A stretch of 64,000 nucleotides of DNA from an uncultured Ignavibacteriales bacterium (GCA_964630485.1 CAZVUZ010000002.1:689-64688); one strand, 5' to 3'. Numbered from the stretch's first letter, positions 13,279-26,542 are shown. Numbers and translations are program-made. Notes: generated by a model not told the origin, from the sequence alone.

Positions 13279-13989
13279 TTATTTCTTGTCCTTGTCCTTG
13301 TCCTTGTTCTTCTCGGCTTTAGAATCCCCCCATGACAGACTCTGGACCATGGCCATCACCTGAGCATCGACCTGCGGGTAATATTGCCATTCACACATCA
13401 TGTGAAACATAATCAGGAGATCGCCCTTCTTGACGGCCACGATGGTACCACCATAGGCTCCCCGGACACGCTTACCCGCCGAAGACGAGGCCGACAGGGC
13501 AACTTCCTTCATATAACGCGAGTAACCCACCCAGCGGACACCCTTCTCGCCGGCTATTTCCAGGGTCTTGCGGCCCTTGGGGATAAGCGACTCACGATCC
13601 GGGCTGTTGTGCAGAATCTCGAACTCTTTAAGCATATCACTCTTTTGATCGGAATTGAAACTGTCGCTGAAGAGGGAATCCAAAGCGGCAAATGCCCCCG
13701 CGCTCGAAGTATCCGCCCAGACAACGAGGCGCGGAACCTGAGTATAGTCTTCATTATCAAGATAATCCGGGGGAATCTCGTAATTCTTTTGAACCATTAT
13801 GAGGCGGAAACTATTATTGTTGTCCATTACCTTGGGTTTCCACCCTTCGTCGATGGTCAGCTGAAAGTCGTATTTCTTGTCAGTGAACACCTGGCTCTTA
13901 ATGCTACCGGATTTATCCTTTTTCCTTTTAGCCGCGATATTCGGCGCACAAAGGGCCAGCATCAAAAACAATAGTAAAAGCCTTCTCAT
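13279..13989 (-). CDS. Secreted hypothetical protein with a KDKDKDKK tail
   Basis: Signal peptide MRRLLLLFLMLALCAPNIAA. GAAGGAG lies upstream of the ATG. I recognise no family. Confidence 0.55.
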   Translation of the reverse strand: MRRLLLLFLMLALCAPNIAAKRKKDKSGSIKSQVFTDKKYDFQLTIDEGWKPKVMDNNNSFRLIMVQKNYEIPPDYLDNEDYTQVPRLVVWADTSSAGAFAALDSLFSDSFNSDQKSDMLKEFEILHNSPDRESLIPKGRKTLEIAGEKGVRWVGYSRYMKEVALSASSSAGKRVRGAYGGTIVAVKKGDLLIMFHMMCEWQYYPQVDAQVMAMVQSLSWGDSKAEKNKDKDKDKK

Positions 13990-14167: not shown

Positions 14168-15034
14168 TCAGCGGAATCCGATCGGACGCTGACGCGCCTG
14201 CTGTATATAGTGAGACATGTTTGTGAATTGAAAGTCCGTGAGGAGCCTTTCCAGCTTGTAGCCGAGAAGTTCCGTTGAGCCATACGACCGCAGTTTCTGA
14301 ACGGCGGAAAGCCCCTCGACCCGAGGCGGATCGGGATCTATTTCCCAAGGGTGAATATAAACGACAGCCGGCTGGCCTTCGCTGTTGAGCCGACGGATAA
14401 TGCGCCGGGTGTACCAGTACGGGCAATGGCGCAGGTAACCGCCGCCAGCCACCGGAATGTTTCGGCCAAGCATGCGGTACGTCGAAGCCGGTATTTCGTA
14501 GAGGGTCAGATCATTCTCGAATTTCATGCGGAAGAGATGGCGAGGCCCCTTAGGCATACCGTAAATATCGTGTTTTATAGGGAAAATGGAACTGTCATAA
14601 TCGAAACCGAGCTGGGCCAGTATTTCAAACGCCCAGGGAATACGGTCGTTTATGGACCAACTCGGTGCCCGGTAGCCGCGCGGCCGGACGCCGCAGGCCA
14701 TCATGATGGCATCGACCGAACGCATGGTGTCTTCCCGAAACTCATCCGGGTCCATCAAATCGACCCGGCGATGATAGTAGCTGTGGCAGGCTATCTCGTG
14801 ACCCTGGTTGTAGATTTCGGCAACGAGATCCTGGTGCCGCTCGGCGCACCAGCCGAGGACGAAGAAAGTCGCGGTGACCCGTTTGCGGCGAAACAGATCA
14901 AGCAGGCGCCTCGTGTTTTTCTCCAGGGTCGAGGGCAGATTTTCCCATTCCTGCTTCCCGTGTTTCCCCGTGAGGGCCTCGACCACGAACCATTCTTCGA
15001 GGTCAACTGTCAGGACATTGAAAGTGTCGGACAT
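14168..15034 (-). CDS. Polysaccharide deacetylase, XrtA/PEP-CTERM-locus type (DUF3473-containing)
   Basis: The N-terminus NVLTVDLEEWF, a NodB-like core (TFFVLGW..., CHSYYH), and the C-terminal DUF3473-like GGGYLR..P pattern. Confidence 0.8.
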   Translation of the reverse strand: MSDTFNVLTVDLEEWFVVEALTGKHGKQEWENLPSTLEKNTRRLLDLFRRKRVTATFFVLGWCAERHQDLVAEIYNQGHEIACHSYYHRRVDLMDPDEFREDTMRSVDAIMMACGVRPRGYRAPSWSINDRIPWAFEILAQLGFDYDSSIFPIKHDIYGMPKGPRHLFRMKFENDLTLYEIPASTYRMLGRNIPVAGGGYLRHCPYWYTRRIIRRLNSEGQPAVVYIHPWEIDPDPPRVEGLSAVQKLRSYGSTELLGYKLERLLTDFQFTNMSHYIQQARQRPIGFR

Positions 15035-15049
15035 ATTATGCGCTCATCA

Positions 15050-15859
15050 TCAGTTTCGGGAAGTCTGCGCCCCTTTGAGGGGATCAGGATCTCCTTTTCC
15101 GGTCTTACCGGTCGCCCGACCGCGTTTGCCGCGGGAGCGCGCCGCAGCCTTGTTCTTAATTGTACGATGGCCGTACTCGTAACCGTAGTATCGATAGTCG
15201 TAATAATGCGGCAGAGCATTGTCCATGTTGTTGAGGACAACACCGAGTATGCGGTTATGGTTGGGATCGAGGATATTGACGGCGCGTTCGGTGACTTCTC
15301 TCTGGGTTGCACCCGCTTTGATGACCATAACGATCCCATCCACTTTCGGGGCCAGCAGCATGGGATCCGACACCGGCAGAGCCGGGGCGGCGTCGAGCAG
15401 GATCAGGTCGTAGTAAAATTTCATTTCTTCCGCAAGGGTACCTATGGCCTCGGCGTCAAAAAGCGCCGTGGGGGTGTCGTTGTAGCGGCCGCAGGTAATC
15501 AGATCGAGTTTATCGATAGAGGTCTTCCGAACGGCATCGCGGGGGCTGAAGGCTTCACCAAGGATCTCGGCCAGACCGCGATCGCGTTCGATCGCAAAAG
15601 CCTTATGAATCGAGGGCCGCCTCAGATCACAATCGATCACGAGGGTCTTCATGCCCTTGTGCAGGGCCGCCGTGATGCCCAGAAACGAACACACCGTAGA
15701 TTTGCCTTCCGAAAGCATCGCCGAACTGATCATCAAGCTCTTGAGCGGCGGCTCCTCGCGAGCCGTCAGTAACTTGTGCAGGAGGCGGCGAAATTCGGTG
15801 GCAAAGGGAGACTCCAGCTGAAAGGTTTCTATAACCGAGAGACGTTTGCGCTTCATCAA
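15050..15859 (-). CDS. Bacterial tyrosine autokinase (CpsD/CapB-type cytoplasmic BY-kinase)
   Basis: Walker A SEGKST, Walker A' VIDCDLRRP, Walker B ILLDAAP, and a C-terminal tyrosine cluster HYYDYRYYGYEYG. Confidence 0.85.
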   Translation of the reverse strand: MMKRKRLSVIETFQLESPFATEFRRLLHKLLTAREEPPLKSLMISSAMLSEGKSTVCSFLGITAALHKGMKTLVIDCDLRRPSIHKAFAIERDRGLAEILGEAFSPRDAVRKTSIDKLDLITCGRYNDTPTALFDAEAIGTLAEEMKFYYDLILLDAAPALPVSDPMLLAPKVDGIVMVIKAGATQREVTERAVNILDPNHNRILGVVLNNMDNALPHYYDYRYYGYEYGHRTIKNKAAARSRGKRGRATGKTGKGDPDPLKGAQTSRN

Positions 15860-15860
15860 A

Positions 15861-16991
15861 TCATCCTTTTTCGGCGATGCGGCTGAGCACCCGACAGATA
15901 TTATCGTACTCGTCCCGGACCGCGTCCAGGTGGCCGCTAACCTTCGAGAGAGAGTTGTTCATCTGCAGTACCTGCCGGAACTGTTCGAGCCCCTTTTGCC
16001 AGGACAGCTTCGCCATTTCCAGATGACAATGGCCCAGCTCGGCGTACAGATCGACATAGGTAGGGTTCTTCTCGATCTCGCGGCAGAGATAGGAAATACG
16101 GTCACCCACCGCCTCTTCCGTAACCCACTCGGGAAACATCACGAATTTCATGTAAAAAGCGGCGGCTTCCTGGCGGTGGTGCTCTCTCTTTTCGTCGCGC
16201 ACGGACTTCAGGAGATTGAAGGCGCCTCGCAGGTCGGAGTTGCGCAGGGCCTTCAGGCCCTGTTCCAGAGTATCAGTCTTGTATTCGGGCGATATCAGCA
16301 CGGCTCGATTAAAATGATCCGTACACTTGCTCAACACCTGCTGAAACAGTCCGGTATCCTCGGCCTTGATGGCATTCAATATAAGGGCAAGGCCCAGATT
16401 GAAATAGGCATCCCCATAGTAGAGGTTCACCTTGATGGCTTCCTCGAACTCGATGACCGCCCGCCGGCAGGACTCCGCCGAAAGGAGCGCCTCACCGAGA
16501 GTGTTGCGATAGTCGGCGTATGACGGGCGCTGTCCCACAGCGGTCGAAGCCGCCTTCACCGCCTCGGCCCCGCGCCCAAGGACCATATAGGTCATGGCCA
16601 GGTGATTGTAGGCCTGGTGAAACTGCGAATCGAGCTGCGTTGCGGATTCGAACAGATCCAGCGCCTCGCCGTGGAGCCCCTTGTAATAGAAGGCCGTGCC
16701 CAGGTGATACATACGGCGGGCATCGCCCTTAGCCATAACCAGACGATAGGAATCGCGGAGCGCCTCAATCTCCCCCTTCATCTCATCGTGGCGCAGCTTA
16801 ACCAGGGAGAGTATTTCCTCGGAATCTATTTCGGCGGGATGCGGGCAGGTAACGACGTCCATGGCTTCACCGTTGACCTGAAGGACCGTCAGCACGGCCG
16901 ATCGTTCAGCATCATTGGAGGTCTGGATCGTATATTCTTTCTTGTTCTCGACCAGCTTACTCTTGAGACGATAGTTCTCCATGTCACTCAC
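15861..16991 (-). CDS. Cytoplasmic TPR-repeat protein
   Basis: 376 aa with no signal peptide and multiple TPR-like repeats. Its start overlaps the stop of the upstream chain-length gene by 4 nt. Confidence 0.65.
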   Translation of the reverse strand: MSDMENYRLKSKLVENKKEYTIQTSNDAERSAVLTVLQVNGEAMDVVTCPHPAEIDSEEILSLVKLRHDEMKGEIEALRDSYRLVMAKGDARRMYHLGTAFYYKGLHGEALDLFESATQLDSQFHQAYNHLAMTYMVLGRGAEAVKAASTAVGQRPSYADYRNTLGEALLSAESCRRAVIEFEEAIKVNLYYGDAYFNLGLALILNAIKAEDTGLFQQVLSKCTDHFNRAVLISPEYKTDTLEQGLKALRNSDLRGAFNLLKSVRDEKREHHRQEAAAFYMKFVMFPEWVTEEAVGDRISYLCREIEKNPTYVDLYAELGHCHLEMAKLSWQKGLEQFRQVLQMNNSLSKVSGHLDAVRDEYDNICRVLSRIAEKG

Positions 16992-18493
16992 CGATTTCGT
17001 GGAAGTTTGTCAATTTTCGGAATAGTCGCCAGTACCGGAAGCCCCAGGAATTCCTCGACATCATCAACCCGTTTGAAGGACTTATCCATGATCTCTATCA
17101 GGAACACGGATCCCCCACCGATAACCAATCCCAGCAGGAAACCCATTATTATGATCTTTTTCTTATCCGGCCAGGAGGGCGCCAGGGGCAGCCGGGCCGG
17201 CTCGATAACCTGGTACTTGGTACGATCTTTGGCCCGTTCCGACAGAATCTCGACTGTGCTCTCCTCGGATCTGAAGGCATCGCGGTATCGCCGGGCATCA
17301 CTCACCCGGCGCTCCAACTCGGCTATCTGAGTCTGCAATTTCGGGACCAGGTTTATGCGCTCATCCATCTTGTTCTGGCTCTGACCGAGCTCACTAACCT
17401 TGGAGTTAAGAATATCCAGGTTTTCCTTGACGACAAAATAGCGCTGAAGGAGCTGTCTTTGATTGGTTGGGTAGGACGCGAACTGGGCATCAACGGCCGC
17501 CGCAAGAGTCTGCTCCAGCAGGTGGATATTGTCGTTTAAGCGTATATTGACGTTGATCACATTGCGCTGGTCCCAGGCGTATTTCTCCATCATCGCCGCG
17601 AAAGTGGCTATTTGAGAATCAATATCCGCCCTGAGTTCCACGAGGGTATCGGTGTATTTCAACCGCGCGTCGCTGAGATCGAAACCGGCCAGGTTAGTCG
17701 CAATCCCGGACAGCTCGTTGCGAAAATCCGCAATCTCCAGCTGGGTTTTGTCTATGTCGGACTGTATCTCGCGCAGGTTTTCCCTGGAGCTGATACTCCC
17801 AGGCAGCTGCAACTTGGCCAGGGCCGATTGCGCCGAGGTCAGTGAATCCAGGGCCACCTGATATTCGAGTTGGGTGCGCTGCAACTGCAAATCGGCAAAA
17901 CTCTGGTTATCCAGAATTTTCTCCAGTTCGTAGCGACTTTTTTCCTGTTCCAGTATTTCGGCCAACCGGGTCACCATGTCCCGGGACTTGACCGGGTCTT
18001 TCGACTCCACGACGATCCGTATCTGGTCGGCGCCGACAAAGGAAACCTGGATCTGACTACGCAGTTTCTCCAGCAGGAGATGGAATTTCAACTCCTCCAG
18101 ACTCTGATCGGGATTGTCCTCGCGCATCTTGGCGGCCTGGCGCGTTAGCTCGAAATCTTTATCCAGGTTCAGGTCGCGGATGAGGTTGAACAGGTACAAC
18201 TGGGAGGTCAACTCGTTTTGAAGGGCCTGCAACTGCCGCCGCCGGTCGTCATTGCTCATGCGCGGCGAGCCCTCGCTGCCAATAATGTTGATCAATTCCC
18301 GGGAAACATTGTGAGGCTTGTCAATCCAGACGATTGTCGAGGACTCGTATATCGGATCGAGCACAAACGACGTCCCGTAGGCAACCGCGGTCACCAGTAT
18401 CAGTGGGGCGATAATCAGCCATTTGCGCTTGAGCGCAATACGGAAGATCTCAACAACATCTATGGATTTGCCTTCCCCGTTGGATTTCGTCAC
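16988..18493 (-). CDS. Polysaccharide chain-length determinant (Wzz/GumC/PCP family)
   Basis: N-terminal TM after IDVVEIFRIALKRKWLII, a long coiled-coil periplasmic region, a C-terminal TM and a proline-rich PARLPLAPSWPDKK motif. Confidence 0.8.
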   Translation of the reverse strand: MTKSNGEGKSIDVVEIFRIALKRKWLIIAPLILVTAVAYGTSFVLDPIYESSTIVWIDKPHNVSRELINIIGSEGSPRMSNDDRRRQLQALQNELTSQLYLFNLIRDLNLDKDFELTRQAAKMREDNPDQSLEELKFHLLLEKLRSQIQVSFVGADQIRIVVESKDPVKSRDMVTRLAEILEQEKSRYELEKILDNQSFADLQLQRTQLEYQVALDSLTSAQSALAKLQLPGSISSRENLREIQSDIDKTQLEIADFRNELSGIATNLAGFDLSDARLKYTDTLVELRADIDSQIATFAAMMEKYAWDQRNVINVNIRLNDNIHLLEQTLAAAVDAQFASYPTNQRQLLQRYFVVKENLDILNSKVSELGQSQNKMDERINLVPKLQTQIAELERRVSDARRYRDAFRSEESTVEILSERAKDRTKYQVIEPARLPLAPSWPDKKKIIIMGFLLGLVIGGGSVFLIEIMDKSFKRVDDVEEFLGLPVLATIPKIDKLPRNR

Positions 18494-18508
18494 GCCATCT
18501 GCCCCATT

Positions 18509-19501
18509 TTAGTTATCACTCGGCTTAACAGCCTCATAAATTAAAACGGCCGACGTCACCGCGCCCAGGACAGTTGTAATCGTCCCCAGCGAGCTTCCGA
18601 ATAAACCGCCCCTTTTGTACGGAATGACTATTGCATCCTCTTTACGCATTATATAACGCGCCGGGACTCCGGTTTCAGCGTATTCTTTAAGATCGAATCC
18701 AAGTGTCTGGGCGTAGGCACCGTCTTTGCTTATCACGCGCGTTTTCCTGAGATCGGCATTGTCGAGGTACCCACCCGCCATCGCCACCGCTTCAAGGACA
18801 TCGATATTGTCCTGGAAACTGCGCGGGCCGGGCTCCCTGACCGCGCCCAGCACGTAGATGATATTGCGTCGGTCAGCCTGGCCGGCATAGTCGGCCGGAG
18901 ACGTTCCCATGGGTGTCATGGGGATATCAATCGCGTCCTGGCGATTAATCTTCGGCAACTGATCGACGGATCTTTCGGCAATGGCGCGCGAAAGATCGAT
19001 CACCTCGATGTCGCCGGAGCGCTCCCCGCCTCGAATTATTGTCACGCGGCTGAGATCACCCGTTTCGGTGCTCCAGCCAGCCTCATTGAGGATGGTCAGA
19101 AGGTCCGGGATTTCCTCAAAGGTCTTCTTGCCCGGGCTGTTGACCTGACCGGTTACAAAGACATGCTGATAGTTGTACTCCGAGACCCGCACCACTGCCT
19201 GCGAGACATTCTTGTAGAGCCGCGACATCTGCCGCACAATTTCGCTTTGCAGCTGCTCAGCAGTCTTGCCCGCCGCTTCGATATCCCCGATAATGTCCAG
19301 GGTTATTCTGCCGTTGAGATCGACTCTCACGCTTGTGTTGAGCGTCGGATCCTGCCAGAAATTGACCTCCAGAACATCTTCGGGACCTATCTCATAGGCC
19401 GCCCAAGAGGGAGTGGCTACCGCCAGCAGCAGAGCCATGAAAATCGTTAATCGTAACATCCTGTCCATAAAACCATCTCTTATGGTATAAGTTCCATCCA
19501 T
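18509..19501 (-). CDS. Polysaccharide export outer-membrane protein (Wza-like, Poly_export + SLBB)
   Basis: Signal peptide, a YEIGPEDVLEVNFW poly-export motif, and SLBB-like segments. The start may be one of the internal Met codons (MDRMLRL...). Confidence 0.8.
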   Translation of the reverse strand: MDGTYTIRDGFMDRMLRLTIFMALLLAVATPSWAAYEIGPEDVLEVNFWQDPTLNTSVRVDLNGRITLDIIGDIEAAGKTAEQLQSEIVRQMSRLYKNVSQAVVRVSEYNYQHVFVTGQVNSPGKKTFEEIPDLLTILNEAGWSTETGDLSRVTIIRGGERSGDIEVIDLSRAIAERSVDQLPKINRQDAIDIPMTPMGTSPADYAGQADRRNIIYVLGAVREPGPRSFQDNIDVLEAVAMAGGYLDNADLRKTRVISKDGAYAQTLGFDLKEYAETGVPARYIMRKEDAIVIPYKRGGLFGSSLGTITTVLGAVTSAVLIYEAVKPSDN

Positions 19502-19575
19502 AGAATGACTTATATAGAAATCGGCAGATTCGCCGGATTTCCTTATAAATTAAGGGGGTGAATACGGCGGTGTAA

Positions 19576-19604
19576 AGCATAAAAAAAGCGGCCGGCATCG
19601 TCAA
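19576..19604 (-). promoter_or_regulatory. Candidate sigma-70-type promoter for the export operon
   Basis: The minus strand reads TTGACG-N17-TATGCT, about 70 nt upstream of the ATG at 19501. This is a pattern match only. Confidence 0.3.
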
Positions 19605-19615
19605 GAAAAGGACGG

Positions 19616-21253
19616 CTAAGCGTCGCCGCCGTGAAGGAGGGCCTGATTTCGCCCCGTATCCTTGGCCCTGAGCAGAGCCATATCAGCCGTATGGAGAAGC
19701 TCTTTGCCCTCGCCGGCGTGGTCGGGGAAAATGGCCCCGCCAAGAGAAACCGTGCATGTCAGAGGCTTTTCGAGCCCGTCTATCGGGAATTTCTCGCCGG
19801 CGATGTCTCGCTGAAGCCGTTGCATGAACCTGACACAGGTTTCTTTGTCGGCTTCGGGCATGATTACGCAAAACTCGTCCCCCCCGTAGCGAGCTACAAT
19901 GTCAATCGACCGGATCGATCCCCTCAGAATTTCGCCGAGGCGGCTCAGGACGGCATCCCCGGCAAGGTGACCGTAGGTATCATTGGTCGCCTTGAGTCCG
20001 TCGAGATCGAACATAATAAGCCCCAGTTTTCTGCGATATCGCTTGGCGCGGGCTATCTCCTCGTCGAGTCGGCGAAACAGGTAACGCTGATTGGCCAATC
20101 CGGTAAGGTTGTCCGTATAGGACATTTGCTCGACTTTTTCGTAATCCTCTGCATTGTCAATAAGATCCGCCGCCTGCGCCTGCCAATACCCCAGCCTCTG
20201 ATTTATCGCCTGAACCCGTCCGCCACCACTCCAGGCCAGGACACCGTTGCGCCCGGGCGCCATCGAGTAAGCGGCGACGTACCTGAAGCCCGACTTTCTG
20301 AGATTGCTCAACCAGCTTGACTTGCGTCCGGGATCGGACTCAAGACTCTCCAGAGTCTGGGCAGATCCACCTTTGAGCATGGCTGCAATCTTCTTGAATT
20401 CCTGTTGTGGGGGCAATTCCGGAGTCTTTTTGAGTCCGTCGCCGGCCAGCTGCGGGCCGTTACCTCCCGACTGATCCTGCTGGTAAAAATAGGCGACGCG
20501 CTCCAACCCCAGATCGGCCTTCATCGTCTCGACTATCCTGGGCACAATAGTTTCCGTATTGCGATGGCGCACCAGTTTGAGGACGTTATTGGGTTTTTCA
20601 GAGTGATCGTGGAGTTGGTCGGTTTTTTCGACTTGTTGCTGCAACCGTCTCTGTAAATCGTCGTTCCTGGTCTCGTGCCACTTGATATGATAGGCCGCCG
20701 ATAGTGCCTGAGCCAGGCTGGCAATGAGCAGGTTAAAGGCCGGCTCGCCTGTCTTGAGGGTACTGCGGATGAAATACAGACCATAAATGTTGTTGCGCCA
20801 GAAGATTGGGAAGAAAGTATCGACCCCCGTGGCCTGCAGACTTTCGTAAAAAGAATCTGTGATGGTGCCCTTCAAATCCGACACCGGTCGCGGCAGATAC
20901 TCCGACTCTAGTTTTTCCGCCAGTTCCCGGCTGAAAGCCATGCGAAACTCATTGCGATTGAATTGCTCAAGACCGTAACTGAAATTGTATTTGAAAACTC
21001 CGCGTTTCTTACGCAGGAAAATGATCAACTCACAGCCGAAAGACCGGGTCAGAAGGCCGGAAACCTGACCCGCGACCTGACCGATCACCCCATCTTTGCT
21101 ATTCGTTTTGAGCAAATCGGAGAATTCAGTCAGGCTCAGCTGCCGGACAGCCGCCATTTCATACCGCTCCCGACGGATACGAAAGATCAGCAGGAGCGCC
21201 AAAACCACGGTTGCCCCGACCAGCGCCACTATGAGTATCGTCTGGTACATCAT
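19616..21253 (-). CDS. Membrane-anchored diguanylate cyclase (GGDEF with I-site)
   Basis: N-terminal TM and a central GAF-like region. The C-terminal GGDEF domain carries RYGGDEF, preceded by RSID five residues upstream (RxxD I-site spacing as in PleD). Confidence 0.85.
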   Translation of the reverse strand: MMYQTILIVALVGATVVLALLLIFRIRRERYEMAAVRQLSLTEFSDLLKTNSKDGVIGQVAGQVSGLLTRSFGCELIIFLRKKRGVFKYNFSYGLEQFNRNEFRMAFSRELAEKLESEYLPRPVSDLKGTITDSFYESLQATGVDTFFPIFWRNNIYGLYFIRSTLKTGEPAFNLLIASLAQALSAAYHIKWHETRNDDLQRRLQQQVEKTDQLHDHSEKPNNVLKLVRHRNTETIVPRIVETMKADLGLERVAYFYQQDQSGGNGPQLAGDGLKKTPELPPQQEFKKIAAMLKGGSAQTLESLESDPGRKSSWLSNLRKSGFRYVAAYSMAPGRNGVLAWSGGGRVQAINQRLGYWQAQAADLIDNAEDYEKVEQMSYTDNLTGLANQRYLFRRLDEEIARAKRYRRKLGLIMFDLDGLKATNDTYGHLAGDAVLSRLGEILRGSIRSIDIVARYGGDEFCVIMPEADKETCVRFMQRLQRDIAGEKFPIDGLEKPLTCTVSLGGAIFPDHAGEGKELLHTADMALLRAKDTGRNQALLHGGDA

Positions 21254-21315
21254 AAACTTAGGCCTACTAAGTTCAAGGTAACCCCTCCTGAAAATATGTC
21301 AATTAAAACCGTTCG

Positions 21316-21624
21316 CTACCGATTGCCCCGACAGAACCGGAATCGGGATCGTTTCTTCAGCAATTTGTGCTTGCGGAGGATGCCGAAGACTCGAAACCAG
21401 CTCACCGGAGGAGACTCGGGACTCCTCCTGATATCCCGGACGATCTCGAGAATCGATGCAAAAGGATCGTCTTTGACGAGCCGCAGAACGGCGCTGACAA
21501 GATCGCCAGAGTCCCGGGCCCATGCGTCTGAAATTTCTACATGTGGTGAATCAGTCTCGGTTGCGGTCGCCTCAAAGCGGTCAACCACGCTCAGGCGCGT
21601 CGACTCCGAGCTTTTTTTTTTCAC
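21316..21624 (-). CDS. Hypothetical 102-codon frame with a basic C-terminus; possibly a frameshifted extension of the STAS gene
   Basis: It has a GTG start with no SD and begins inside an A10 tract. It overlaps the STAS gene by 44 nt. Third-position GC is coding-like. The C-terminus VSWFRVFGILRKHKLLKKRSRFRF is basic and HTH-like. Confidence 0.25.
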   Translation of the reverse strand: MKKKSSESTRLSVVDRFEATATETDSPHVEISDAWARDSGDLVSAVLRLVKDDPFASILEIVRDIRRSPESPPVSWFRVFGILRKHKLLKKRSRFRFCRGNR

Positions 21625-21997
21625 CGGTTGGCCCGGCCACCGGCGCGAAATCAGAGCGCGCTTCCTCTACCGACCCGAAGGCCTTGAGGACATTGTCGAA
21701 CTCCAGTAACTCGTATATCTCGTATACATTGGGAACGAGGTTGGACAGCTTGATATCGCCGTCATTGGAACGGACATCGCGGATATTAGAGATGAAAATA
21801 CCCCATCCGGCCGAAGAAATATAGTCAACACCGGCGAGATCCACAACCACCCGGTAGCGACCGCGTTTGACCAGCGAATCAATGACCTCTTCCAGCTCGC
21901 CGGCGGTATTGGTGTCAATCACACCATCCACCCGCACCACGCTGAGGTCACCGGGGCTGCTTTCATTCAGAGAAATAGAGATGTTGTCCTTAACCAA
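21581..21997 (-). CDS. STAS-domain protein (anti-sigma-factor antagonist, SpoIIAA/RsbV-like)
   Basis: 138 aa. VDLAGVDYISSAGWG contains the conserved phosphorylatable Ser context (DYISSAG). An extra tail of about 28 aa follows the STAS fold. Confidence 0.85.
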   Translation of the reverse strand: MVKDNISISLNESSPGDLSVVRVDGVIDTNTAGELEEVIDSLVKRGRYRVVVDLAGVDYISSAGWGIFISNIRDVRSNDGDIKLSNLVPNVYEIYELLEFDNVLKAFGSVEEARSDFAPVAGPTGEKKKLGVDAPERG

Positions 21998-22124
21998 TTG
22001 TCAGCCTCATCCTAAGTACGGCGTTCGTCTGAATAAACGAGCATCTCGGCTCCCAGGCAAGGAAAATGTTGCCATTCGGTAGCCTTGAGATCCCGCGCCT
22101 GGCGGCCATTTGCGGCGCCTTGAG

Positions 22125-24170
22125 TCATAAGCTCTTCTTATCCGTCAGGGCGTTCTCCTGCCCCACCGGTATTGACTCGATCTGTCCGGGTTTTCCGGCC
22201 CCGGCCGTTTCTACAGCCACCCCGACCCTGGCAACAATGAAAGTGATATCATCACCGAGTTTCGAGAAACCGGCGAATTCATCGAGTTCGGCAATAAGGT
22301 TCGCGGTTAAATCCGGCAGTTTGACGGCAATCCCCCGATTGTTCGTTTCCATGAAAGTCACCAGGCGGTCGAGGCCGAACTGGCGGCCTTCCCTGTCCGT
22401 CGCCTCGGTGACACCATCGGTATACATGAGGAGCAGGTCACCATCGGCCAGCGACAGATTTATCTCTTCGAGGCTTTCTTCAAATCCACCCTTGAGAACC
22501 ACCGGCATCCCCAGCGGCATACCTGCCGGGTTTACGCGGTGCACGGCCTTTGCGTCACGAGAGCAGAGCAAAAGCGGGTTATGTCCCGCCGAGACCAGGC
22601 CCAGATTCCGTTCGGCGGCATCGTATATGGCCAGCATGACCGTGATAAACATACCCGACGGGATATTTCCGTCGAGGTAACGGTTTACGCGAGTCAACAG
22701 CCCTTTCGGCGACACCGCATCGGCCGAGTATATCCTGATCACCGTCCGCAACATGGACATTACCAGCGAGGCGGGCACGCCCTTGCCGGAGACATCGGCC
22801 ACGACCAGACAGTATTTCTCGGGGCCGACCTCAAAGACATCGTAGAGATCCCCCCCGACAACGGTGGCCGGCCGGTAGAATGCACCCAGGCGAAGCCCCT
22901 CCGGTTCCGGCAGTTTGCGAGGCAGAAGGGTGTGCTGAATCTGTGAGGCTACCTCGATTTCCTTGGCCATTTTTTCCCGGGCGGCAATGTTCTTTTTGTC
23001 CTGGCTGAGGCGCGTCATGACCTCGTTAAAGGCCCGGGATATCTCGAAGAACTCCTCCGCTCCCTCAAGCGGCAATTCCGATTCGAGATCCCCGGAAGCG
23101 AAGCGCCGAACGCGACTCGTGATCTTGACGATCGGCCGCACGAAATAGTTCGAGAGCATGTAGATTCCGAACACTCCGAACAACAGCAACAGGAGGGTGA
23201 GAAACAAAACTCTCCGACGGGCATCGGTCAGAGGACCCGAGATAGTCTCGGACGTATACGTCACATAGGCCTGACCGACTTTAGTACTGCCCCACGTGAT
23301 CGGTTGCACCAGATAGTAAACCCGTTCACCGTCAATTTCGAGCGACGCCGGCTCGCCGACCACGACCGGCCCGATCGACTCCGGCGCCCGGTAGGGGGTA
23401 CGAATGAGGCGGGTGCTGTCTGAATGGGCAATGATAACCCCGCCGGCGTCGGCCAAAACGACCCTCCGGAGCTCCGGGTTGGCCCGGGCATAGCTCGCCA
23501 CCAGCTCGGCAAACTCGATATCGGAGCGACTGCGAACCATGTATCCCGCCGCCTGGTCGGCGATCGTTCGCGTAAGAGAATTCACGGTTCGATGCAACCG
23601 CGCATAAAGCTGCTGAGTGGTCTGGCGATCCATGTAGTAAAAAGCCCCGCCGACAATGACCAACACGATAATGAATGTCCACACCGAAAACTTGGCCCGG
23701 AGGGTGAACATCCGGCGCAGGAGACCGCGACCATCGCCACCACTGCGATGCAAACGCTTGATCATGCGCAGTTCATTGCGACCGGCGGCCGAGATGTATT
23801 CGACCGAATCCATGATCTTCTGGATCATGTAGAAGCCCAGGCCACCCTTGCGACCCGATTCGACCAGCTTCGCCAAATCTATAGTACCCGTGGAATTGGG
23901 CTGAAAGGAGCGTCCGAAATCGATAAGCGAGAAAACAACGAGCTTTTTGTACAGCACGATGCGAAGCCGCAAAACGCCCTTTTCGTAGAGGTAAGCGTGC
24001 CGGATGATATTGGTCGCCGCCTCCTCGGTCGCGAGCAACACCGACGAAGTCTCCCGGCGGGACATACCGGCCGCAATGCAACTGTCATGGACGGTTCGCT
24101 GGATACTGTCGAGGTATTTCTCCTCGGCCGAGAACTCGGCGTTAATCTCTTTCAGCGCGCTACGAAACAT
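22125..24170 (-). CDS. Fusion protein: RsbW/SpoIIAB-type serine kinase, TM, periplasmic sensor, TM, HAMP, PP2C (SpoIIE) phosphatase
   Basis: Residues 1-140 carry the GHKL motifs EEAATNIIRHA, IDFGRSF and GGLGFYMI. TM segments are at about 161-180 and 321-343. HAMP spans about 344-395. PP2C motifs are VVGGDLYDV, ADVSGKGVPASL, GHNPLLL, MYTDGVTEA and DDITFIV. Confidence 0.85.
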   Translation of the reverse strand: MFRSALKEINAEFSAEEKYLDSIQRTVHDSCIAAGMSRRETSSVLLATEEAATNIIRHAYLYEKGVLRLRIVLYKKLVVFSLIDFGRSFQPNSTGTIDLAKLVESGRKGGLGFYMIQKIMDSVEYISAAGRNELRMIKRLHRSGGDGRGLLRRMFTLRAKFSVWTFIIVLVIVGGAFYYMDRQTTQQLYARLHRTVNSLTRTIADQAAGYMVRSRSDIEFAELVASYARANPELRRVVLADAGGVIIAHSDSTRLIRTPYRAPESIGPVVVGEPASLEIDGERVYYLVQPITWGSTKVGQAYVTYTSETISGPLTDARRRVLFLTLLLLLFGVFGIYMLSNYFVRPIVKITSRVRRFASGDLESELPLEGAEEFFEISRAFNEVMTRLSQDKKNIAAREKMAKEIEVASQIQHTLLPRKLPEPEGLRLGAFYRPATVVGGDLYDVFEVGPEKYCLVVADVSGKGVPASLVMSMLRTVIRIYSADAVSPKGLLTRVNRYLDGNIPSGMFITVMLAIYDAAERNLGLVSAGHNPLLLCSRDAKAVHRVNPAGMPLGMPVVLKGGFEESLEEINLSLADGDLLLMYTDGVTEATDREGRQFGLDRLVTFMETNNRGIAVKLPDLTANLIAELDEFAGFSKLGDDITFIVARVGVAVETAGAGKPGQIESIPVGQENALTDKKSL

Positions 24171-24248
24171 ATAAAAACACTACGGCGGGAAAGCTCGGCA
24201 GTCTACTAAAAAAGGTCTCCGGGGCGGCCCATCAGGTCGGAATATCAG

Positions 24249-26255
24249 CTATCTACTCCGGCTCCAGGCATTGTAAAATGATATAAGTACCTCAAGGTCT
24301 TCGGGATATTTCTTGAGGACTTTATCCCACTCGACCATAGCCTTCTCGTAATCCTCGTTCTGGTATGCCTCCAGGCCGCTCTTGTACAATTCGTCGTACT
24401 CGGCATCGCGCTGGCGATCCGACACGGCATCAGGGGCGGTACGAAGCGAAATGAATCTCTCTTCGATGGCGGGACCAAGGACCTTGAAAGGATTCCCCTC
24501 GGCCATAGCCTGTTTGAGCGAATCTATCCAGATCCTGTTCAACTCATCCACGGCTTGAAGGTCGGCGCGCCTCTCTTCCGGTGTCCCGGTGTAGGCGTTT
24601 GCCGCAAGGGTGTCGAGTAACCGCAACCGGGTCTCGGCCTCGGCGTATGTGGGGTCAAGTTCGAGGACGTGTAAATAGGCCTCAATGGCCCTCGAATACA
24701 GGCCCTCTTTTTCAGCACTGCTGGCGACTACGAGACTGAAGACCTTGTCGAGGTCGCGGGAATCTTTGATATTCATTTCGAGCGTGTCGGCCTTCGACCG
24801 GTTTCGGGCACCGGGAGGAATATTCTGTAAGCGGGCCAGCGCCTGAGCGAATTTTCGTTCACCCGACAGGGCCTCCGCCTGCTCATAATTACTTTCGGCG
24901 AGACTGTCGCTGAGAGCCCGGCGCACACTCTGTTCTCGATTGCTCAATAGACCCGAATAGCGTTGATCGTTAGCCCCGGCCAGCCCCGCCCGGGCGGAGT
25001 CGAGAAGGGCGCTGACGGTGTCGACTTCGCGCTCACTCTCGGTAAAGGCCATCGCCCGCCAGGCATAGCCGAGAGCGCGGTCGAAGCGATCTTCCTCCGA
25101 ACCGGCCATCAAACGACCGGCCTCGGAAAGATATTCCTCGTAACTCGCGCGCCGATATCGCTGCAGGGTATCCCTCCTGGCCTGCCACAGGTCCTCGTCG
25201 GAAACCTCAGGCTGCACCAGGACAGTGTCGCGGACGGTGATCGTCTCAACGGGGCGTCTGGTTCTGGCTCGATCGAGCGGAACCGAGACCGACAGGTTAA
25301 TGCCGCCATTATTATCGTATTGGTCCGAGTCATAGAACCACGAATAGGAAAGGTCCACATCGATGCCTTTGTAAACAGCCCCCGCCCCGAGGGCGAAGGA
25401 ATTGTCGTTGGCATCGAGCAAGCGACTAAAGCCGGTCCTGACAGCCAGGCTGAGATCGGCATCTATGGTGCGAACCGCCTCGGCGCCGAGATGTACCCGA
25501 TCGGTGCTGTCGTCAACGAGTACGTATTCGCCGCTGAAGGTTCCGTTCCACATCTTCGCAAGATCGACCGACCTGGCGGAGATCCCAAAGGCCAGCGAGA
25601 TCGGAGTAATATCGTCCATGCCCCTCAGCTCGATATCGCGAACCGACGCCCCGACGGTAAACATTGTGTCAATCGGGTAGATCGCCGAGAGGTCGGCGCC
25701 AACGCCCCAGGTGGTATCGCGGCCAAACTCATTTCGGACTATCTTAAAACTGCCGCCGAACCAGACCTGGTCATACAAACCGCGGCGGTGTCCATAGGAG
25801 ACAATCATCTGTTGTCGGGAATCGTCGGTCGTATAGCGGGGGCCGTCGTTGATCCGCACCCGGTCCCGAACACGCACAGAGGTTGCCCCGAAGCCAATCA
25901 TTCCGCCGAAGACGCTGTCGGGAAGAACAGCAAAGACAGAATAGCCATCGGTGGATCCCGAGAGTTGCGAGAAACCGGCGGTGAGGCGGCTCGATTCGAT
26001 CACGCCCAACCCGGCCGGATTATAGAGTACCGTTGTCGGCTCATCGAAGAGCGCTACGAAAGATCCTCCCATGGCCAGGGAGCGACCTCCGAAACCGGTA
26101 TTAAACAGGGGCTCACAACCGGCACCGGTCCCGGCCGCGACCGGCACGGCCGCGAGAACCATGACGGCCAATACCGTCACCGACAGAATATGAAGTCGTG
26201 CGGAAGTTCGCCGCTTCGGATCTACAAAACGCATCTTTACTGACACCCTTCCCAT
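24249..26255 (-). CDS. Putative outer-membrane beta-barrel protein with a C-terminal helical/TPR region
   Basis: Signal peptide, then the N-terminal motif GGRSLAMGGSFVALFDEPTTVLYNPAGLG, which is typical of PorV/FadL-like barrels. Alternating beta-strand patterns run to about residue 330. The remainder is a helical, TPR-like half. Confidence 0.55.
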   Translation of the reverse strand: MGRVSVKMRFVDPKRRTSARLHILSVTVLAVMVLAAVPVAAGTGAGCEPLFNTGFGGRSLAMGGSFVALFDEPTTVLYNPAGLGVIESSRLTAGFSQLSGSTDGYSVFAVLPDSVFGGMIGFGATSVRVRDRVRINDGPRYTTDDSRQQMIVSYGHRRGLYDQVWFGGSFKIVRNEFGRDTTWGVGADLSAIYPIDTMFTVGASVRDIELRGMDDITPISLAFGISARSVDLAKMWNGTFSGEYVLVDDSTDRVHLGAEAVRTIDADLSLAVRTGFSRLLDANDNSFALGAGAVYKGIDVDLSYSWFYDSDQYDNNGGINLSVSVPLDRARTRRPVETITVRDTVLVQPEVSDEDLWQARRDTLQRYRRASYEEYLSEAGRLMAGSEEDRFDRALGYAWRAMAFTESEREVDTVSALLDSARAGLAGANDQRYSGLLSNREQSVRRALSDSLAESNYEQAEALSGERKFAQALARLQNIPPGARNRSKADTLEMNIKDSRDLDKVFSLVVASSAEKEGLYSRAIEAYLHVLELDPTYAEAETRLRLLDTLAANAYTGTPEERRADLQAVDELNRIWIDSLKQAMAEGNPFKVLGPAIEERFISLRTAPDAVSDRQRDAEYDELYKSGLEAYQNEDYEKAMVEWDKVLKKYPEDLEVLISFYNAWSRSR

Positions 26256-26449
26256 TATCTCCCGAATCCCATGGAGAAGCTACCCTCGTACGGACATTGC
26301 CTTGCCGTTAAATTTACGTCGGCCATGTCATGCATCCCCCGCATTCGACAGCCCAGCTGTGGCGCCCGGACACACTCGGGACAAAATAAGTCCCAAATAA
26401 CGACCGCCAGTCTGCATCAGAGGTTACTCTGAATTACGCGGAATATAGC

Positions 26450-26480
26450 ATAAAAGCCCGGAAATTCAAACGATTTCCGG
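26450..26480 (-). terminator. Rho-independent terminator after folD
   Basis: The minus strand has CCGGAAAT, a 7-nt loop, ATTTCCGG, followed by GCUUUUAUGCUAUAUU. It lies 63 nt after the folD stop. Confidence 0.6.
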
Positions 26481-26542
26481 TATCCGAGACCAATAGATTA
26501 GACCGAAAGCCGGTGTTATCAGGTTTCAAGAGTCGGGTATGC

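What the first reader, a model, noticed from the sequence alone, without database searches (positions are those of the whole stretch)
21581..24170. One transmembrane polypeptide carries both an RsbW-type serine kinase and a PP2C phosphatase, next to a STAS substrate
The 681-aa product of 22125..24170 begins with a complete SpoIIAB/RsbW-like GHKL kinase domain (EEAATNIIRHA, IDFGRSF, GGLGFYMI). It then crosses the membrane at about residues 161-180 and exposes about 140 aa outside. It re-enters at about residues 321-343 and continues through HAMP into a SpoIIE/PP2C phosphatase.

The very next gene is a STAS protein with the DYISSAG phosphorylation context. Both opposing activities of a partner-switch are therefore fused and placed under one extracytoplasmic sensor.

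The fused examples I know (P. aeruginosa HsbR, M. tuberculosis Rv1364c) are cytoplasmic and place the kinase after the phosphatase. The order here, kinase / TM-sensor-TM / HAMP / PP2C, looks unusual to me. No sigma factor gene is adjacent, so the output of the switch is not obvious.
Basis: partly seen in the sequence, partly recalled or inferred. Interest (0 to 1): 0.62.

Follow-up and report, generated by a model that had tools for sequence, protein, structure and literature searches.

The report
Membrane kinase-phosphatase switch with slippery STAS gene
A Zixibacteria membrane sensor carries both the kinase and the phosphatase that act on a neighbouring STAS switch protein; it probably controls a c-di-GMP synthase and slime-export genes next door, and the STAS gene appears to make a second, longer protein by slipping at a run of ten A's.

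Summary
ORF 22125..24170 (-) encodes RsbW-type kinase / TM / single-Cache periplasmic domain / TM / HAMP / PP2C. Catalytic residues are intact in both enzymes, and a STAS gene with the phosphorylatable Ser62 follows.

- The kinase-first order is already characterised in Vibrio fischeri SypE.
- The exact membrane architecture is not rare. 96 of the best 150 cluster representatives (50% identity) have it, and 20 genome loci do, under labels including Zixibacteria, Ignavibacteria, Latescibacterota, Calditrichia, KSB1, Eisenbacteria and Omnitrophota. No paper describing it turned up in my two keyword searches.
- A likely output exists. A GGDEF diguanylate cyclase follows in conserved synteny (32 of 42 loci), then XrtA/PEP-CTERM-type exopolysaccharide export genes. 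This resembles HsbR-HsbA-HsbD and SiaABCD.

The "gap" after STAS encodes a conserved ~60-aa helical, HTH-like domain ("X").
- In 46 loci without an A-run, X is always in frame with STAS.
- In a 41-locus group that always carries an A9/A10 run, X is out of frame in 29, including this window (+1).
- This suggests transcriptional slippage producing STAS and STAS-X isoforms.

Verdict: new variant of a known kind, of moderate to good interest.

The parts
22125..24170 (-). Gene for the 681-aa bifunctional sensor: kinase / TM / sCache / TM / HAMP / PP2C.
   Evidence: ORF. Pfam domains. At least 120 full-length homologues at 56-66% identity, those that carry a name mostly Zixibacteria.
23757..24134 (-). 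RsbW/SpoIIAB-type GHKL serine kinase domain, residues 13-138.
   Evidence: PF13581, 73.6 bits. Aligns with RsbW 6m36, E 1.6e-7. E50, N54, D84 and G112 are invariant.
23631..23690 (-). Transmembrane helix 1, about residues 161-180.
   Evidence: Hydropathy peak; 5 K/R residues on the N-terminal flank.
23211..23630 (-). Periplasmic single-Cache (PDC) sensor domain, about residues 181-320.
   Evidence: sCache_3_2, 21.4 bits, below cut-off. AF2 pLDDT 88. Foldseek hits to WalK, DcuS and CitA sensor domains, E 8e-6 to 8e-4.
23142..23210 (-). Transmembrane helix 2, about residues 321-343.
   Evidence: Hydropathy peak; 5 K/R residues on the C-terminal flank.
23004..23156 (-). HAMP domain, residues 339-389.
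   Evidence: PF00672, 36.1 bits.
22224..22823 (-). PP2C/SpoIIE-type serine phosphatase domain, residues 450-649.
   Evidence: PF07228, 157 bits. Aligns with Rv1364c, SiaA and SpoIIE structures. D441, D459, D585, D640 and D641 are invariant.
21581..21997 (-). STAS gene, zero-frame product of 138 aa. Predicted phospho-acceptor Ser62 at codon 21812..21814.
   Evidence: PF01740, 63 bits; TIGR00377, 61.6 bits, above its cut-off of 53.45. Alignment to SpoIIAA and TM1442.
21612..21621 (-). A10 run (T10 on the + strand) in the STAS linker, encoding KKK. Candidate transcriptional-slippage or frameshift site.
   Evidence: It is the only A/T run of 9 or more in the 64-kb window. An A9/A10 run is present in all 41 loci of one group. 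Run length is identical in 6 of 6 near-identical contig pairs.
21316..21611 (-). +1-frame continuation after the A-run: conserved TRLSVVD motif, linker and X domain. The X core is 21319..21498 and the stop is 21316..21318. It gives a STAS-X product of about 226 aa if one A is dropped or two are added.
   Evidence: The frame is open from the run to the stop, with no canonical start near X. Conserved as protein in 24 out-of-frame loci, with codon-position differences 0.54/0.44/0.69. In frame with STAS in 46 run-less loci. AF2 four-helix model, pLDDT 85.
19616..21253 (-). Membrane-anchored diguanylate cyclase of 545 aa, the candidate output. N-terminal hydrophobic segment read as a TM helix, then about 350 aa of unknown fold, then GGDEF (19643..20119) with a GGDEF active site and an RSID I-site.
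   Evidence: PF00990, 152 bits. Aligns with solved cyclases. Conserved position in L001, L003, L005, L013 and L028, and in 32 of 42 metagenome loci.
14168..19501 (-). Exopolysaccharide genes of XrtA/PEP-CTERM type, the probable physiological target. They are a Wza-like exporter (18509..19501), a chain-length determinant (16988..18493), a TPR protein (15861..16991), a tyrosine autokinase (15050..15859) and a polysaccharide deacetylase (14168..15034).
   Evidence: Pfam. NCBIfam TIGR03006, 327.5 bits (cut-off 276.2), and TIGR01007, 139.6 bits (cut-off 108). Same order in L001 and L003.

Best explanation
The 681-aa protein is a membrane-embedded, bifunctional partner-switch enzyme.

Architecture. 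A periplasmic single-Cache domain sits between two transmembrane helices. An RsbW-type serine kinase hangs on the cytoplasmic end of TM1. A HAMP-PP2C phosphatase hangs on the cytoplasmic end of TM2.

Mechanism, with shown and inferred steps marked:
- Shown: both enzyme domains are present with intact catalytic residues, and the STAS protein encoded next has the phospho-acceptor Ser62.
- Inferred: an extracytoplasmic ligand shifts the balance between the two activities. This sets the phosphorylation state of Ser62.
- Inferred: one phospho-form of STAS binds and controls the membrane-anchored GGDEF diguanylate cyclase encoded just downstream, as HsbA does with HsbD and SiaC with SiaD.
- Inferred: the resulting c-di-GMP governs the XrtA/PEP-CTERM-type exopolysaccharide export genes that follow.

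A second layer. The STAS gene has two products. Standard decoding gives the 138-aa STAS protein. Slippage at the A10 run, most likely by RNA polymerase, joins STAS to a ~60-aa helical, HTH-like domain X, giving a protein of about 226 aa. In other phyla X is fused in frame to STAS, to the C-terminus of the kinase-phosphatase, or to both. X is therefore an integral module of this switch, either a docking domain or a DNA-binding domain.
For: Domain content, topology and catalytic residues.

Conserved operon-like order, kinase/PP2C - STAS - X - GGDEF - Wza - Wzz - TPR - tyrosine kinase - deacetylase:
- Seen in two large Zixibacteria contigs of 3.6 and 3.8 Mb and in further loci.
- GGDEF lies within 2.6 kb downstream in 32 of 42 loci that have enough sequence.
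- The GGDEF active site and RxxD I-site are intact.
- The exopolysaccharide genes are of XrtA/PEP-CTERM type.

Precedents:
- SypE, a kinase-REC-PP2C enzyme acting on STAS SypA in a polysaccharide locus (PMC3610818).
- HsbA (STAS) binds the cyclase HsbD (PMC5085249).
- SiaABCD (PMC8457831, PMC7647112).

Slippage:
- In an NJ tree of 87 loci, X is in frame with STAS in all 46 loci without an A-run. All 41 loci of one contiguous group carry an A9/A10 run, and in 29 of these X is out of frame (27 at -1, 2 at +1). In-frame and out-of-frame states are interspersed within that group.
- The shifted frame is open from the run to X in 28 of 29 loci.
- A peptide motif, (T/R)(R/K)(L/V)(T/S)V(V/I/L)D, is conserved in the shifted frame directly after the run. 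Codon-position differences are coding-like at 0.54/0.44/0.69.
- The window and L001 have no canonical start codon near X.
- The phase of the run relative to the STAS frame varies (0, 1 or 2). No consistent downstream hairpin is predicted.
- It is the only A/T run of 9 or more in the 64-kb window. In 399 kb of related loci there are 42 such runs, and 41 of those loci carry the STAS-linker run.
- Run length is identical in 6 of 6 pairs of near-identical contigs, including two separately assembled records, L001 and L002.
- Runs of nine A's are established slippage sites: T. thermophilus dnaX and Shigella mxiE (PMC1088944).

X as part of the system:
- X is found after the PP2C domain in about 50 of the longer family members.
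- X is present on both the enzyme and STAS in L017, L018, L019, L021 and L040.
Against: - Nothing here shows phosphorylation, STAS-cyclase binding, c-di-GMP synthesis or mRNA heterogeneity. All functional steps are inferred from homology and synteny.
- 10 of 42 loci lack a GGDEF gene downstream, so the cyclase is a frequent partner rather than an obligatory one.
- SiaC is not a Pfam STAS protein, and NCBIfam SiaA/SiaD matches are far below equivalog cut-offs.
- X has no significant structural match (best Foldseek E 1.5) and only sub-threshold Pfam HTH hits. Its role is open.
- In some lineages a start codon exists near X (L003 has an ATG; gene callers called X-only ORFs P0270-P0272). Separate translation cannot be excluded everywhere.
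- One out-of-frame locus (L092) has a stop between the run and X.
- The window needs -1A or +2A, whereas most relatives need +1A.
Confidence: 0.6

Rival explanations
1. The main output is transcriptional rather than c-di-GMP. STAS-X is a phosphorylation-controlled DNA-binding protein. The membrane-tethered kinase domain sequesters unphosphorylated STAS-X at the membrane, in an anti-sigma-like way, and the neighbouring cyclase is only a co-regulated gene.
For: - X gives weak hits to transposase-type HTH families in 20 of 43 members.
- The best, non-significant, fold match is the RED HTH subdomain of the Sleeping Beauty transposase, followed by several winged-helix regulators.
- In long family members an HTH_28 domain (P0125) lies just before the region that matches X in related members (P0127, P0128), like a paired bipartite DNA-binding domain.
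- 10 of 42 loci have no GGDEF gene but keep STAS, most with X.
Against: - HTH assignments are all below significance.
- X on both enzyme and substrate fits a docking or dimerisation role at least as well.
- No operator or target is known.
- In out-of-frame lineages the long isoform would be the minor product.
Confidence: 0.25
2. It is a classical sigma-factor partner switch. The N-terminal kinase domain is also an anti-sigma factor that holds a sigma factor encoded elsewhere in the genome at the membrane, and unphosphorylated STAS releases it.
For: The kinase domain is closest to RsbW and SpoIIAB. The STAS protein passes the anti-sigma-antagonist superfamily model TIGR00377.
Against: - No sigma gene is near the locus in the window or in the syntenic loci L001 and L003.
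- RsbW and SpoIIAB equivalog scores are far below cut-off (56.6 vs 145; 25 vs 135).
- The conserved neighbours are a cyclase and polysaccharide genes.
Confidence: 0.1
3. The frame break at the A-run is not programmed. It is an assembly error, a decaying fusion, or X is translated on its own from an internal or non-canonical start.
For: - Homopolymers are error-prone.
- L003 has an in-frame ATG at the start of the X core, and gene callers produced X-only ORFs.
- L092 has a stop between the run and X.
Against: - Identical run lengths in 6 of 6 near-identical contig pairs.
- In the one pair compared (L137 in frame, L139 at -1), both have A10 and the indel lies beside the run, not in it.
- A break occurs in 29 of 41 run-bearing loci and in 0 of 46 run-less loci.
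- Coding-type conservation holds in the shifted frame right from the run, including a motif upstream of any possible start.
Confidence: 0.15
4. The A-run is a DNA-level phase-variation switch. Slipped-strand mispairing during replication turns the STAS-X fusion on and off in subpopulations.
For: A9-A10 tracts are hypermutable (PMC1088944). All three frame states occur within the run-bearing group.
Against: No run-length difference was seen in 6 of 6 near-identical contig pairs. In the one pair compared (L137 vs L139) the frame difference comes from an indel next to the run while A10 is kept.
Confidence: 0.1

Closest known systems
SypE-SypA of Vibrio fischeri (PMC3610818)
   Same: - One polypeptide with an N-terminal RsbW-like serine kinase and a C-terminal PP2C phosphatase, with a sensory or regulatory module between them.
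- The substrate is a single-domain STAS protein.
- It is encoded in a polysaccharide/biofilm locus.
- A conserved Asn is present in the kinase N-box (SypE N52; here N54).
   Different: - SypE is cytoplasmic and its middle module is a REC receiver fed by a phosphorelay.
- Here the middle module is TM / single-Cache / TM / HAMP, so the input is extracytoplasmic and the two enzymes hang on different transmembrane helices.
- The SypA target is unknown, and I did not check the syp locus for a cyclase.
HsbR-HsbA-HsbD of Pseudomonas aeruginosa (PMC5085249)
   Same: A STAS anti-anti-sigma factor (HsbA) that binds a nearby-encoded GGDEF cyclase (HsbD) to control biofilm and motility (PMC5085249). From my own knowledge, HsbR is a bifunctional kinase/phosphatase acting on HsbA.
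   Different:
- Its input is the HptB phosphorelay.
- HsbA also acts on an anti-sigma factor.
- No X domain and no slippery run are reported.
SiaABCD of Pseudomonas aeruginosa (PMC8457831, PMC7647112)
   Same: - A membrane HAMP-PP2C phosphatase (SiaA), a kinase (SiaB), a small phospho-switch protein (SiaC) and a cyclase (SiaD), which SiaC activates.
- The best NCBIfam hit of the C-terminal half here is SiaA. SiaD ranks third among hits for the cyclase.
   Different: - Kinase and phosphatase are separate proteins.
- SiaC is not a Pfam STAS protein and is phosphorylated on Thr.
- Scores here are far below the equivalog cut-offs (74 vs 700; 141.8 vs 290), so these are analogues, not orthologues.
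Rv1364c of Mycobacterium tuberculosis, and RsbU/RsbV/RsbW
   Same: The same three catalytic and switch domains. The PP2C domain's best solved-structure match is Rv1364c, and the kinase's is RsbW.
   Different: - Rv1364c is cytoplasmic with the phosphatase before the kinase and STAS fused (own knowledge).
- The Rsb proteins are separate and control a sigma factor.
Programmed transcriptional slippage at A/T runs: Thermus thermophilus dnaX (A9) and Shigella mxiE (PMC1088944)
   Same: - A run of 9-10 identical bases inside a coding region, with a stop soon after in one frame and a conserved C-terminal extension in another.
- mxiE likewise needs slippage to make the longer product.
- dnaX makes a short and a long product from one gene.
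   Different: - Slippage has not been demonstrated here.
- It occurs in a signalling STAS gene of an uncultivated phylum.
- Related lineages keep the run but place the extension in the 0, -1 or +1 frame.

Membership tests
RsbW/SpoIIAB-type GHKL serine kinases (Pfam HATPase_c_2) | Match to PF13581 above the gathering score. | tested here: met
   73.6 bits vs 27.4, residues 13-138.
RsbW/SpoIIAB-type GHKL serine kinases (Pfam HATPase_c_2) | ATP-binding N-box (E..N..H), G1 (DxG) and G2 (GxG) motifs. | tested here: met
   E50, N54, H58, D84, G86, G109, G110 and G112 align with RsbW and SpoIIAB. They are invariant or nearly invariant in 20 members.
RsbW/SpoIIAB-type GHKL serine kinases (Pfam HATPase_c_2) | Orthology to RsbW or SpoIIAB (NCBIfam equivalog cut-offs) and binding of a sigma factor. 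| tested here: not met
   RsbW scores 56.6 vs 145 and SpoIIAB 25 vs 135. No sigma gene is nearby. Binding itself is not testable here.
PPM/PP2C SpoIIE-type serine phosphatases | Match to PF07228 and conserved metal-binding aspartates. | tested here: met
   157 bits vs 25. D441, D459, D585, D640 and D641 are invariant.
STAS anti-sigma-factor antagonists | STAS fold model above cut-off, with a serine at the SpoIIAA Ser58-equivalent position. | tested here: met
   PF01740 scores 63 vs 22.6 and TIGR00377 scores 61.6 vs 53.45. Ser62 aligns with the phospho-serine position.
SypE-type dual kinase/phosphatase | N-terminal serine kinase and C-terminal PP2C on one chain, with the STAS substrate gene in the same polysaccharide locus. 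| tested here: met
   PMC3610818.
SypE-type dual kinase/phosphatase | Central REC receiver domain. | tested here: not met
   There is no REC match. The middle is TM / Cache / TM / HAMP.
STAS-controlled diguanylate cyclase modules (HsbA-HsbD, SiaC-SiaD) | A GGDEF cyclase with an intact active site encoded next to the switch protein. | tested here: met
   PF00990 scores 152 bits; GGDEF and RSID motifs are present. Conserved in 32 of 42 loci.
STAS-controlled diguanylate cyclase modules (HsbA-HsbD, SiaC-SiaD) | Physical binding of the switch protein to the cyclase, with a change in c-di-GMP output. | not testable with these tools
   Needs two-hybrid or pull-down experiments and enzyme assays.
SiaA / SiaD orthologues (NCBIfam equivalogs) | Score above the equivalog cut-off. 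| tested here: not met
   SiaA scores 74 vs 700 and SiaD 141.8 vs 290.
Single Cache (sCache_3_2 / PDC) extracytoplasmic sensors | Pfam model above the gathering score. | tested here: inconclusive
   The window scores 21.4 vs 28.4. Many close homologues carry precomputed PF17203 hits, and P0125 scores 34.3 bits.
Single Cache (sCache_3_2 / PDC) extracytoplasmic sensors | PDC fold: a long N-terminal helix and a five-stranded sheet, lying between two TM helices. | tested here: met
   AF2 pLDDT 88. Foldseek hits WalK/YycG at 8e-6, DcuS 3by8 at 3.7e-4 and CitA 1p0z at 8.3e-4. PMC4822843 lists 1P0Z and 3BY8 as sCache_3_2 structures.
Genes using programmed transcriptional slippage | An A or T run of about 9 or more inside the coding region at the frame junction. 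| tested here: met
   A10 at 21612..21621. A9/A10 is present in all 41 loci of the group.
Genes using programmed transcriptional slippage | The downstream alternative frame is conserved as protein-coding and contiguous with the run. | tested here: met
   Open in 28 of 29 loci. Conserved motif and coding-type codon-position pattern. The same domain is in frame in 46 run-less relatives.
Genes using programmed transcriptional slippage | mRNA heterogeneity in run length and detection of both protein products. | not testable with these tools
   Needs transcriptome reads and proteomics or reporter assays.
HTH DNA-binding domains (for domain X) | Significant sequence or fold match to an HTH family. 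| tested here: inconclusive
   20 of 43 members give sub-threshold HTH_Tnp_Tc3_2 hits, best 3.8e-4. The Foldseek best hit has E 1.5.

The most novel reading that the evidence does not exclude
A large, unstudied family of membrane partner-switch enzymes uses a small helical domain X as its working handle.

In this Zixibacteria group a strictly conserved A9/A10 run is a programmed slippage site that sets the ratio of plain STAS to STAS-X. Lineages tune that ratio by moving X between the 0, -1 and +1 frames while keeping the run.

The membrane-tethered kinase would then hold or release a STAS-X regulator, either DNA-binding or docking. That would be a sigma-free version of anti-sigma control, working alongside control of a diguanylate cyclase.
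Probability: 0.3. Interest if true: 0.8.

Novelty: new variant of a known kind. Interest (0 to 1): 0.6.

Why it matters
Partner switches are usually studied as soluble sigma-factor regulators. This locus shows a widespread family in poorly known phyla in which one extracytoplasmic Cache sensor carries both opposing enzymes, one on each of its two transmembrane helices. That gives a simple system for asking how one receptor reciprocally controls a kinase and a phosphatase.

The conserved link to a diguanylate cyclase and exopolysaccharide export genes gives a testable route from an outside signal to biofilm matrix in Zixibacteria, which have no cultured model.

The A-run is a fresh, comparatively well-supported candidate for programmed slippage in a signalling gene. 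Automatic annotation currently splits the gene or misses the extension. The domain it hides, X, also marks the C-termini of many related enzymes.

Tried and rejected
- Rfam scan of 19400..24400 at E up to 1 found nothing. The STAS-GGDEF "gap" is not a known riboswitch or RNA.
- The promoter/terminator scan gave counts within shuffle expectation and no clear operon boundary.
- Searches for X in the 5.8-billion-protein index returned only 1 and 6 short ORFs, because the index needs shared words and X is mostly uncalled.
- Foldseek of the X model against the PDB found no significant match.
- Pfam on X gave only sub-threshold HTH hits.
- Downstream RNA hairpin as a ribosomal-frameshift stimulator: of ten loci folded, only one had z below -2. 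With the variable codon phase of the run, I rank classical -1 ribosomal frameshifting below transcriptional slippage. The A_AAA_AAG heptamer is in phase in some loci, including L001 and the window.
- Homopolymer assembly error was rejected.
- Independent initiation of X was judged unlikely for the window and L001, which have no start codon and have a conserved motif upstream.
- PDB sequence search of the cyclase N-terminal 370 aa found no match outside the GGDEF domain.
- Literature searches for this exact architecture found none.

Full report
**1. Observation**

The two ORFs exist as described: 22125..24170 (-) of 681 aa, and 21581..21997 (-) of 138 aa.

Pfam finds the following in the large protein:
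- HATPase_c_2 at residues 13-138 (73.6 bits, cut-off 27.4).
- HAMP at 339-389 (36.1 bits).
- SpoIIE at 450-649 (157 bits).
- A sub-threshold sCache_3_2 at 180-316 (21.4 bits, cut-off 28.4).

The small protein matches STAS (63 bits).

Hydropathy shows only two membrane-spanning peaks, at about 161-180 and 321-343. Positive charges lie before the first and after the second. Both enzyme domains are therefore cytoplasmic and about 140 aa are outside.

An AlphaFold model of that outside part has pLDDT 88. It matches the extracellular sensor domains of WalK/YycG, DcuS and CitA, with Foldseek E from 8e-6 to 8e-4. DcuS (3BY8) and CitA (1P0Z) are listed as sCache_3_2 structures (PMC4822843).

The kinase ATP-binding motifs E50/N54/H58, D84-x-G86 and G109-G110-x-G112 align with RsbW and SpoIIAB. 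The PP2C aspartates D441, D459, D585 and D640/D641 align with Rv1364c, SiaA and SpoIIE. All are invariant or nearly invariant in 20 family members at 25-62% identity.

STAS Ser62 aligns with the phosphorylated serine position of SpoIIAA and TM1442.

**2. Organism and spread**

At least 120 full-length homologues of 56-66% identity share the same Pfam set. Those that carry a name are mostly labelled Zixibacteria/GN15.

A search of 1.84 billion cluster representatives shows that 96 of the best 150 have the same layout. That layout is kinase at about residues 1-140, a hydrophobic segment near 160, about 150 aa, a second segment near 325, and PP2C at about 400-650. Identity runs down to 27%.

In species-representative genomes, 20 loci encode one ORF with kinase, at least two hydrophobic segments, then PP2C. 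Their labels include Zixibacteria, Ignavibacteria, Latescibacterota, Spirochaetia, KSB1, Calditrichia, Eisenbacteria, Cytophagia and Omnitrophota. Only the best 80 of at least 597 matches were kept, so this is a lower bound. MAG labels may be imprecise.

Many members are longer, with C-terminal HTH_28, TPR or three fused STAS domains. The architecture is common. Two literature searches found no description of it.

**3. The "unusual order"**

SypE of Vibrio fischeri is a characterised dual enzyme. It has an N-terminal serine kinase, a central REC domain and a C-terminal PP2C. It phosphorylates and dephosphorylates the STAS protein SypA within the syp polysaccharide locus, and its kinase requires Asn52 (PMC3610818).

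The order kinase / sensor module / phosphatase is therefore known. What is new here is the module in the middle. A TM / Cache / TM / HAMP unit places the two enzymes on different transmembrane helices of an extracytoplasmic receptor.

**4. Surroundings and likely output**

Downstream of STAS lies a 545-aa protein (19616..21253) with:
- an N-terminal hydrophobic segment that I read as a TM helix,
- about 350 aa without a known domain,
- a GGDEF domain with an intact GGDEF site and an RSID I-site five residues upstream.

After it come a Wza-like exporter, a chain-length determinant, a TPR protein, a tyrosine autokinase (TIGR01007, above cut-off) and an XrtA-system polysaccharide deacetylase (TIGR03006, above cut-off).

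The order RNase Y - YmdB - FolD - ... - PorV-like/TPR - kinase/PP2C - STAS - GGDEF - Wza - ... - deacetylase is kept in two large Zixibacteria contigs of 3.6 and 3.8 Mb. Among metagenome loci with enough sequence, 32 of 42 have a GGDEF gene within 2.6 kb after STAS.

No sigma factor is nearby.

The closest working precedents are HsbA, a STAS protein that binds the cyclase HsbD (PMC5085249), and SiaABCD (PMC8457831, PMC7647112). NCBIfam SiaA and SiaD scores are far below equivalog cut-offs, so these are analogues and not orthologues.

**5. A hidden domain and an A-run**

The 327-nt "gap" between STAS and the cyclase is not empty. It encodes a conserved peptide, X, with consensus LE..L..V..DPF.SI.E...EL.........GWW..F.ILR...LL..RSRFR.

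In more distant relatives (L006, L013, L028 and many metagenome contigs), STAS and X form one ORF of about 215-245 aa.

In the window and its closer relatives the STAS frame stops 6-31 nt after a run of nine or ten A's. X lies in another frame that is open from the run onward.

In a first count of 76 loci with both STAS and X, 47 were in frame, 27 at -1 and 2 at +1 (the window and L115). Every out-of-frame locus has an A9/A10 run, and 28 of 29 have the shifted frame open from the run to X.

A more sensitive X profile raised the total to 87 loci. In a neighbour-joining tree of these:
- all 41 run-bearing loci form one contiguous group in the ladderised leaf order;
- every member of that group keeps the run;
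- in-frame and out-of-frame states are interspersed within the group;
- none of the 46 loci outside the group is out of frame. One of those 46 (L126) has an A8 run.

**6. Is the frame break real and used?**

- Independent near-identical contigs have the same run length in 6 of 6 pairs. One pair is an NCBI genome record and a separate read-archive assembly.
- In the one pair compared (L137 in frame, L139 at -1), both have A10 and differ by an indel next to the run.
- In the shifted frame a motif, (T/R)(R/K)(L/V)(T/S)V(V/I/L)D, is conserved directly after the run (window: STRLSVVD).
- Pairwise differences by codon position are 0.54, 0.44 and 0.69, which is a coding pattern.
- The window and L001 have no canonical start codon near X.
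- The run is the only A/T run of 9 or more in the 64-kb window. In 399 kb of related loci there are 42 such runs, and 41 of those loci carry the STAS-linker run. Only 42% of Lys codons in the window's genes are AAA.

These points argue against assembly error, decay or independent translation as the general explanation. Independent initiation may still occur in some lineages: L003 has an ATG, and callers produced X-only ORFs.

**7. Mechanism of recoding**

The codon phase of the run relative to STAS varies between 0, 1 and 2. Of ten downstream segments folded, only one had z below -2. Both points fit RNA-polymerase slippage better than a fixed X_XXY_YYZ ribosomal site. The A_AAA_AAG heptamer is in phase in several loci, including the window, so ribosomal frameshifting is not excluded.

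Runs of nine A's are established slippage sites. T. thermophilus dnaX makes two products from one, and Shigella mxiE needs slippage for its long product (PMC1088944).

In the window, dropping one A or adding two joins STAS (through about residue 128) to 98 further residues, giving about 226 aa. Most relatives need one extra A.

**8. What is X?**

AlphaFold gives a confident four-helix model with pLDDT 85.

Foldseek finds nothing significant. The top hit is the RED subdomain of the Sleeping Beauty transposase (E 1.5), followed by several winged-helix regulators. Twenty of 43 members give sub-threshold HTH_Tnp_Tc3_2 hits.

X also occurs about 70-150 residues after the PP2C domain in about 50 of the longer family members. 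In P0125 an HTH_28 domain sits in the corresponding stretch. In Calditrichia, Eisenbacteria and Omnitrophota loci both the enzyme and its STAS partner end in X.

X is thus a signature module of this family. Whether it binds DNA or serves as a homotypic docking handle between enzyme and substrate is open.

**9. Verdict**

The finding is real, but the reasons given for its novelty do not hold. The order has a characterised precedent, the architecture is widespread, and a plausible output sits next door.

It remains an unstudied membrane variant of dual kinase/phosphatase partner switches. The slippery STAS gene and the X domain add a new layer.

I rate it a new variant of a known kind, with interest 0.6. 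All functional steps are inferred: phosphorylation, cyclase control, slippage and the role of X. The experiments that would settle them are listed under next steps.

Noticed in passing
window 21612..21621 (-) and 21316..21611 (-): An A10 run near the 3' end of the STAS gene, followed in the +1 frame by a conserved ~60-aa helical domain (X). This is a candidate programmed slippage site giving STAS and STAS-X isoforms. In 87 related loci the frame break occurs only where the run exists (29 of 41 vs 0 of 46).
   Followed up: yes
P0125-P0215 (about residues 720-800); L017, L018, L019, L021, L040: Domain X is fused after the PP2C domain in about 50 longer family members. P0125 has an HTH_28 domain in the corresponding stretch. 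In several phyla both the enzyme and its STAS partner end in X, which suggests a docking or shared-target role.
   Followed up: partly
L008 5938..10344, L011, L016; P0150: Some relatives (a Latescibacterota-labelled MAG and unclassified MAGs) fuse three STAS domains to the C-terminus of the kinase-phosphatase and have two more STAS genes downstream.
   Followed up: no
window 24249..26255 (-): The gene directly upstream (78-nt gap, same strand) encodes a 668-aa protein with a PorV/PorQ-like N-terminal part (sub-threshold) and C-terminal TPR repeats. A TPR-bearing protein of about 605-609 aa occupies the same position in L001 and L003. It is possibly an outer-membrane partner of the sensor.
   Followed up: no
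window 19616..21253 (-), residues 1-370: The cyclase has a 370-aa N-terminal region (an N-terminal hydrophobic segment plus an unknown fold) with no Pfam or PDB sequence match. It is conserved in 21 of 42 related loci and is a candidate STAS-binding region.
   Followed up: partly
window 13279..13989 (-): A 236-aa ORF inside the exopolysaccharide cluster has no Pfam or NCBIfam match. A 229-aa gene without any family hit sits at the same place in L003.
   Followed up: no
window 26256..26542 vs L001 2358..6113 and L003 3113..6127: The two syntenic Zixibacteria contigs carry a 1000-1250-aa gene between FolD and the PorV-like/TPR gene. That gene is absent from the window.
   Followed up: no
L004, L005 (genome contigs): Two contigs with 61% identical orthologues and full Zixibacteria-type synteny are labelled "uncultured Ignavibacteriales". 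This is probably a taxonomic label problem in those MAGs.
   Followed up: no
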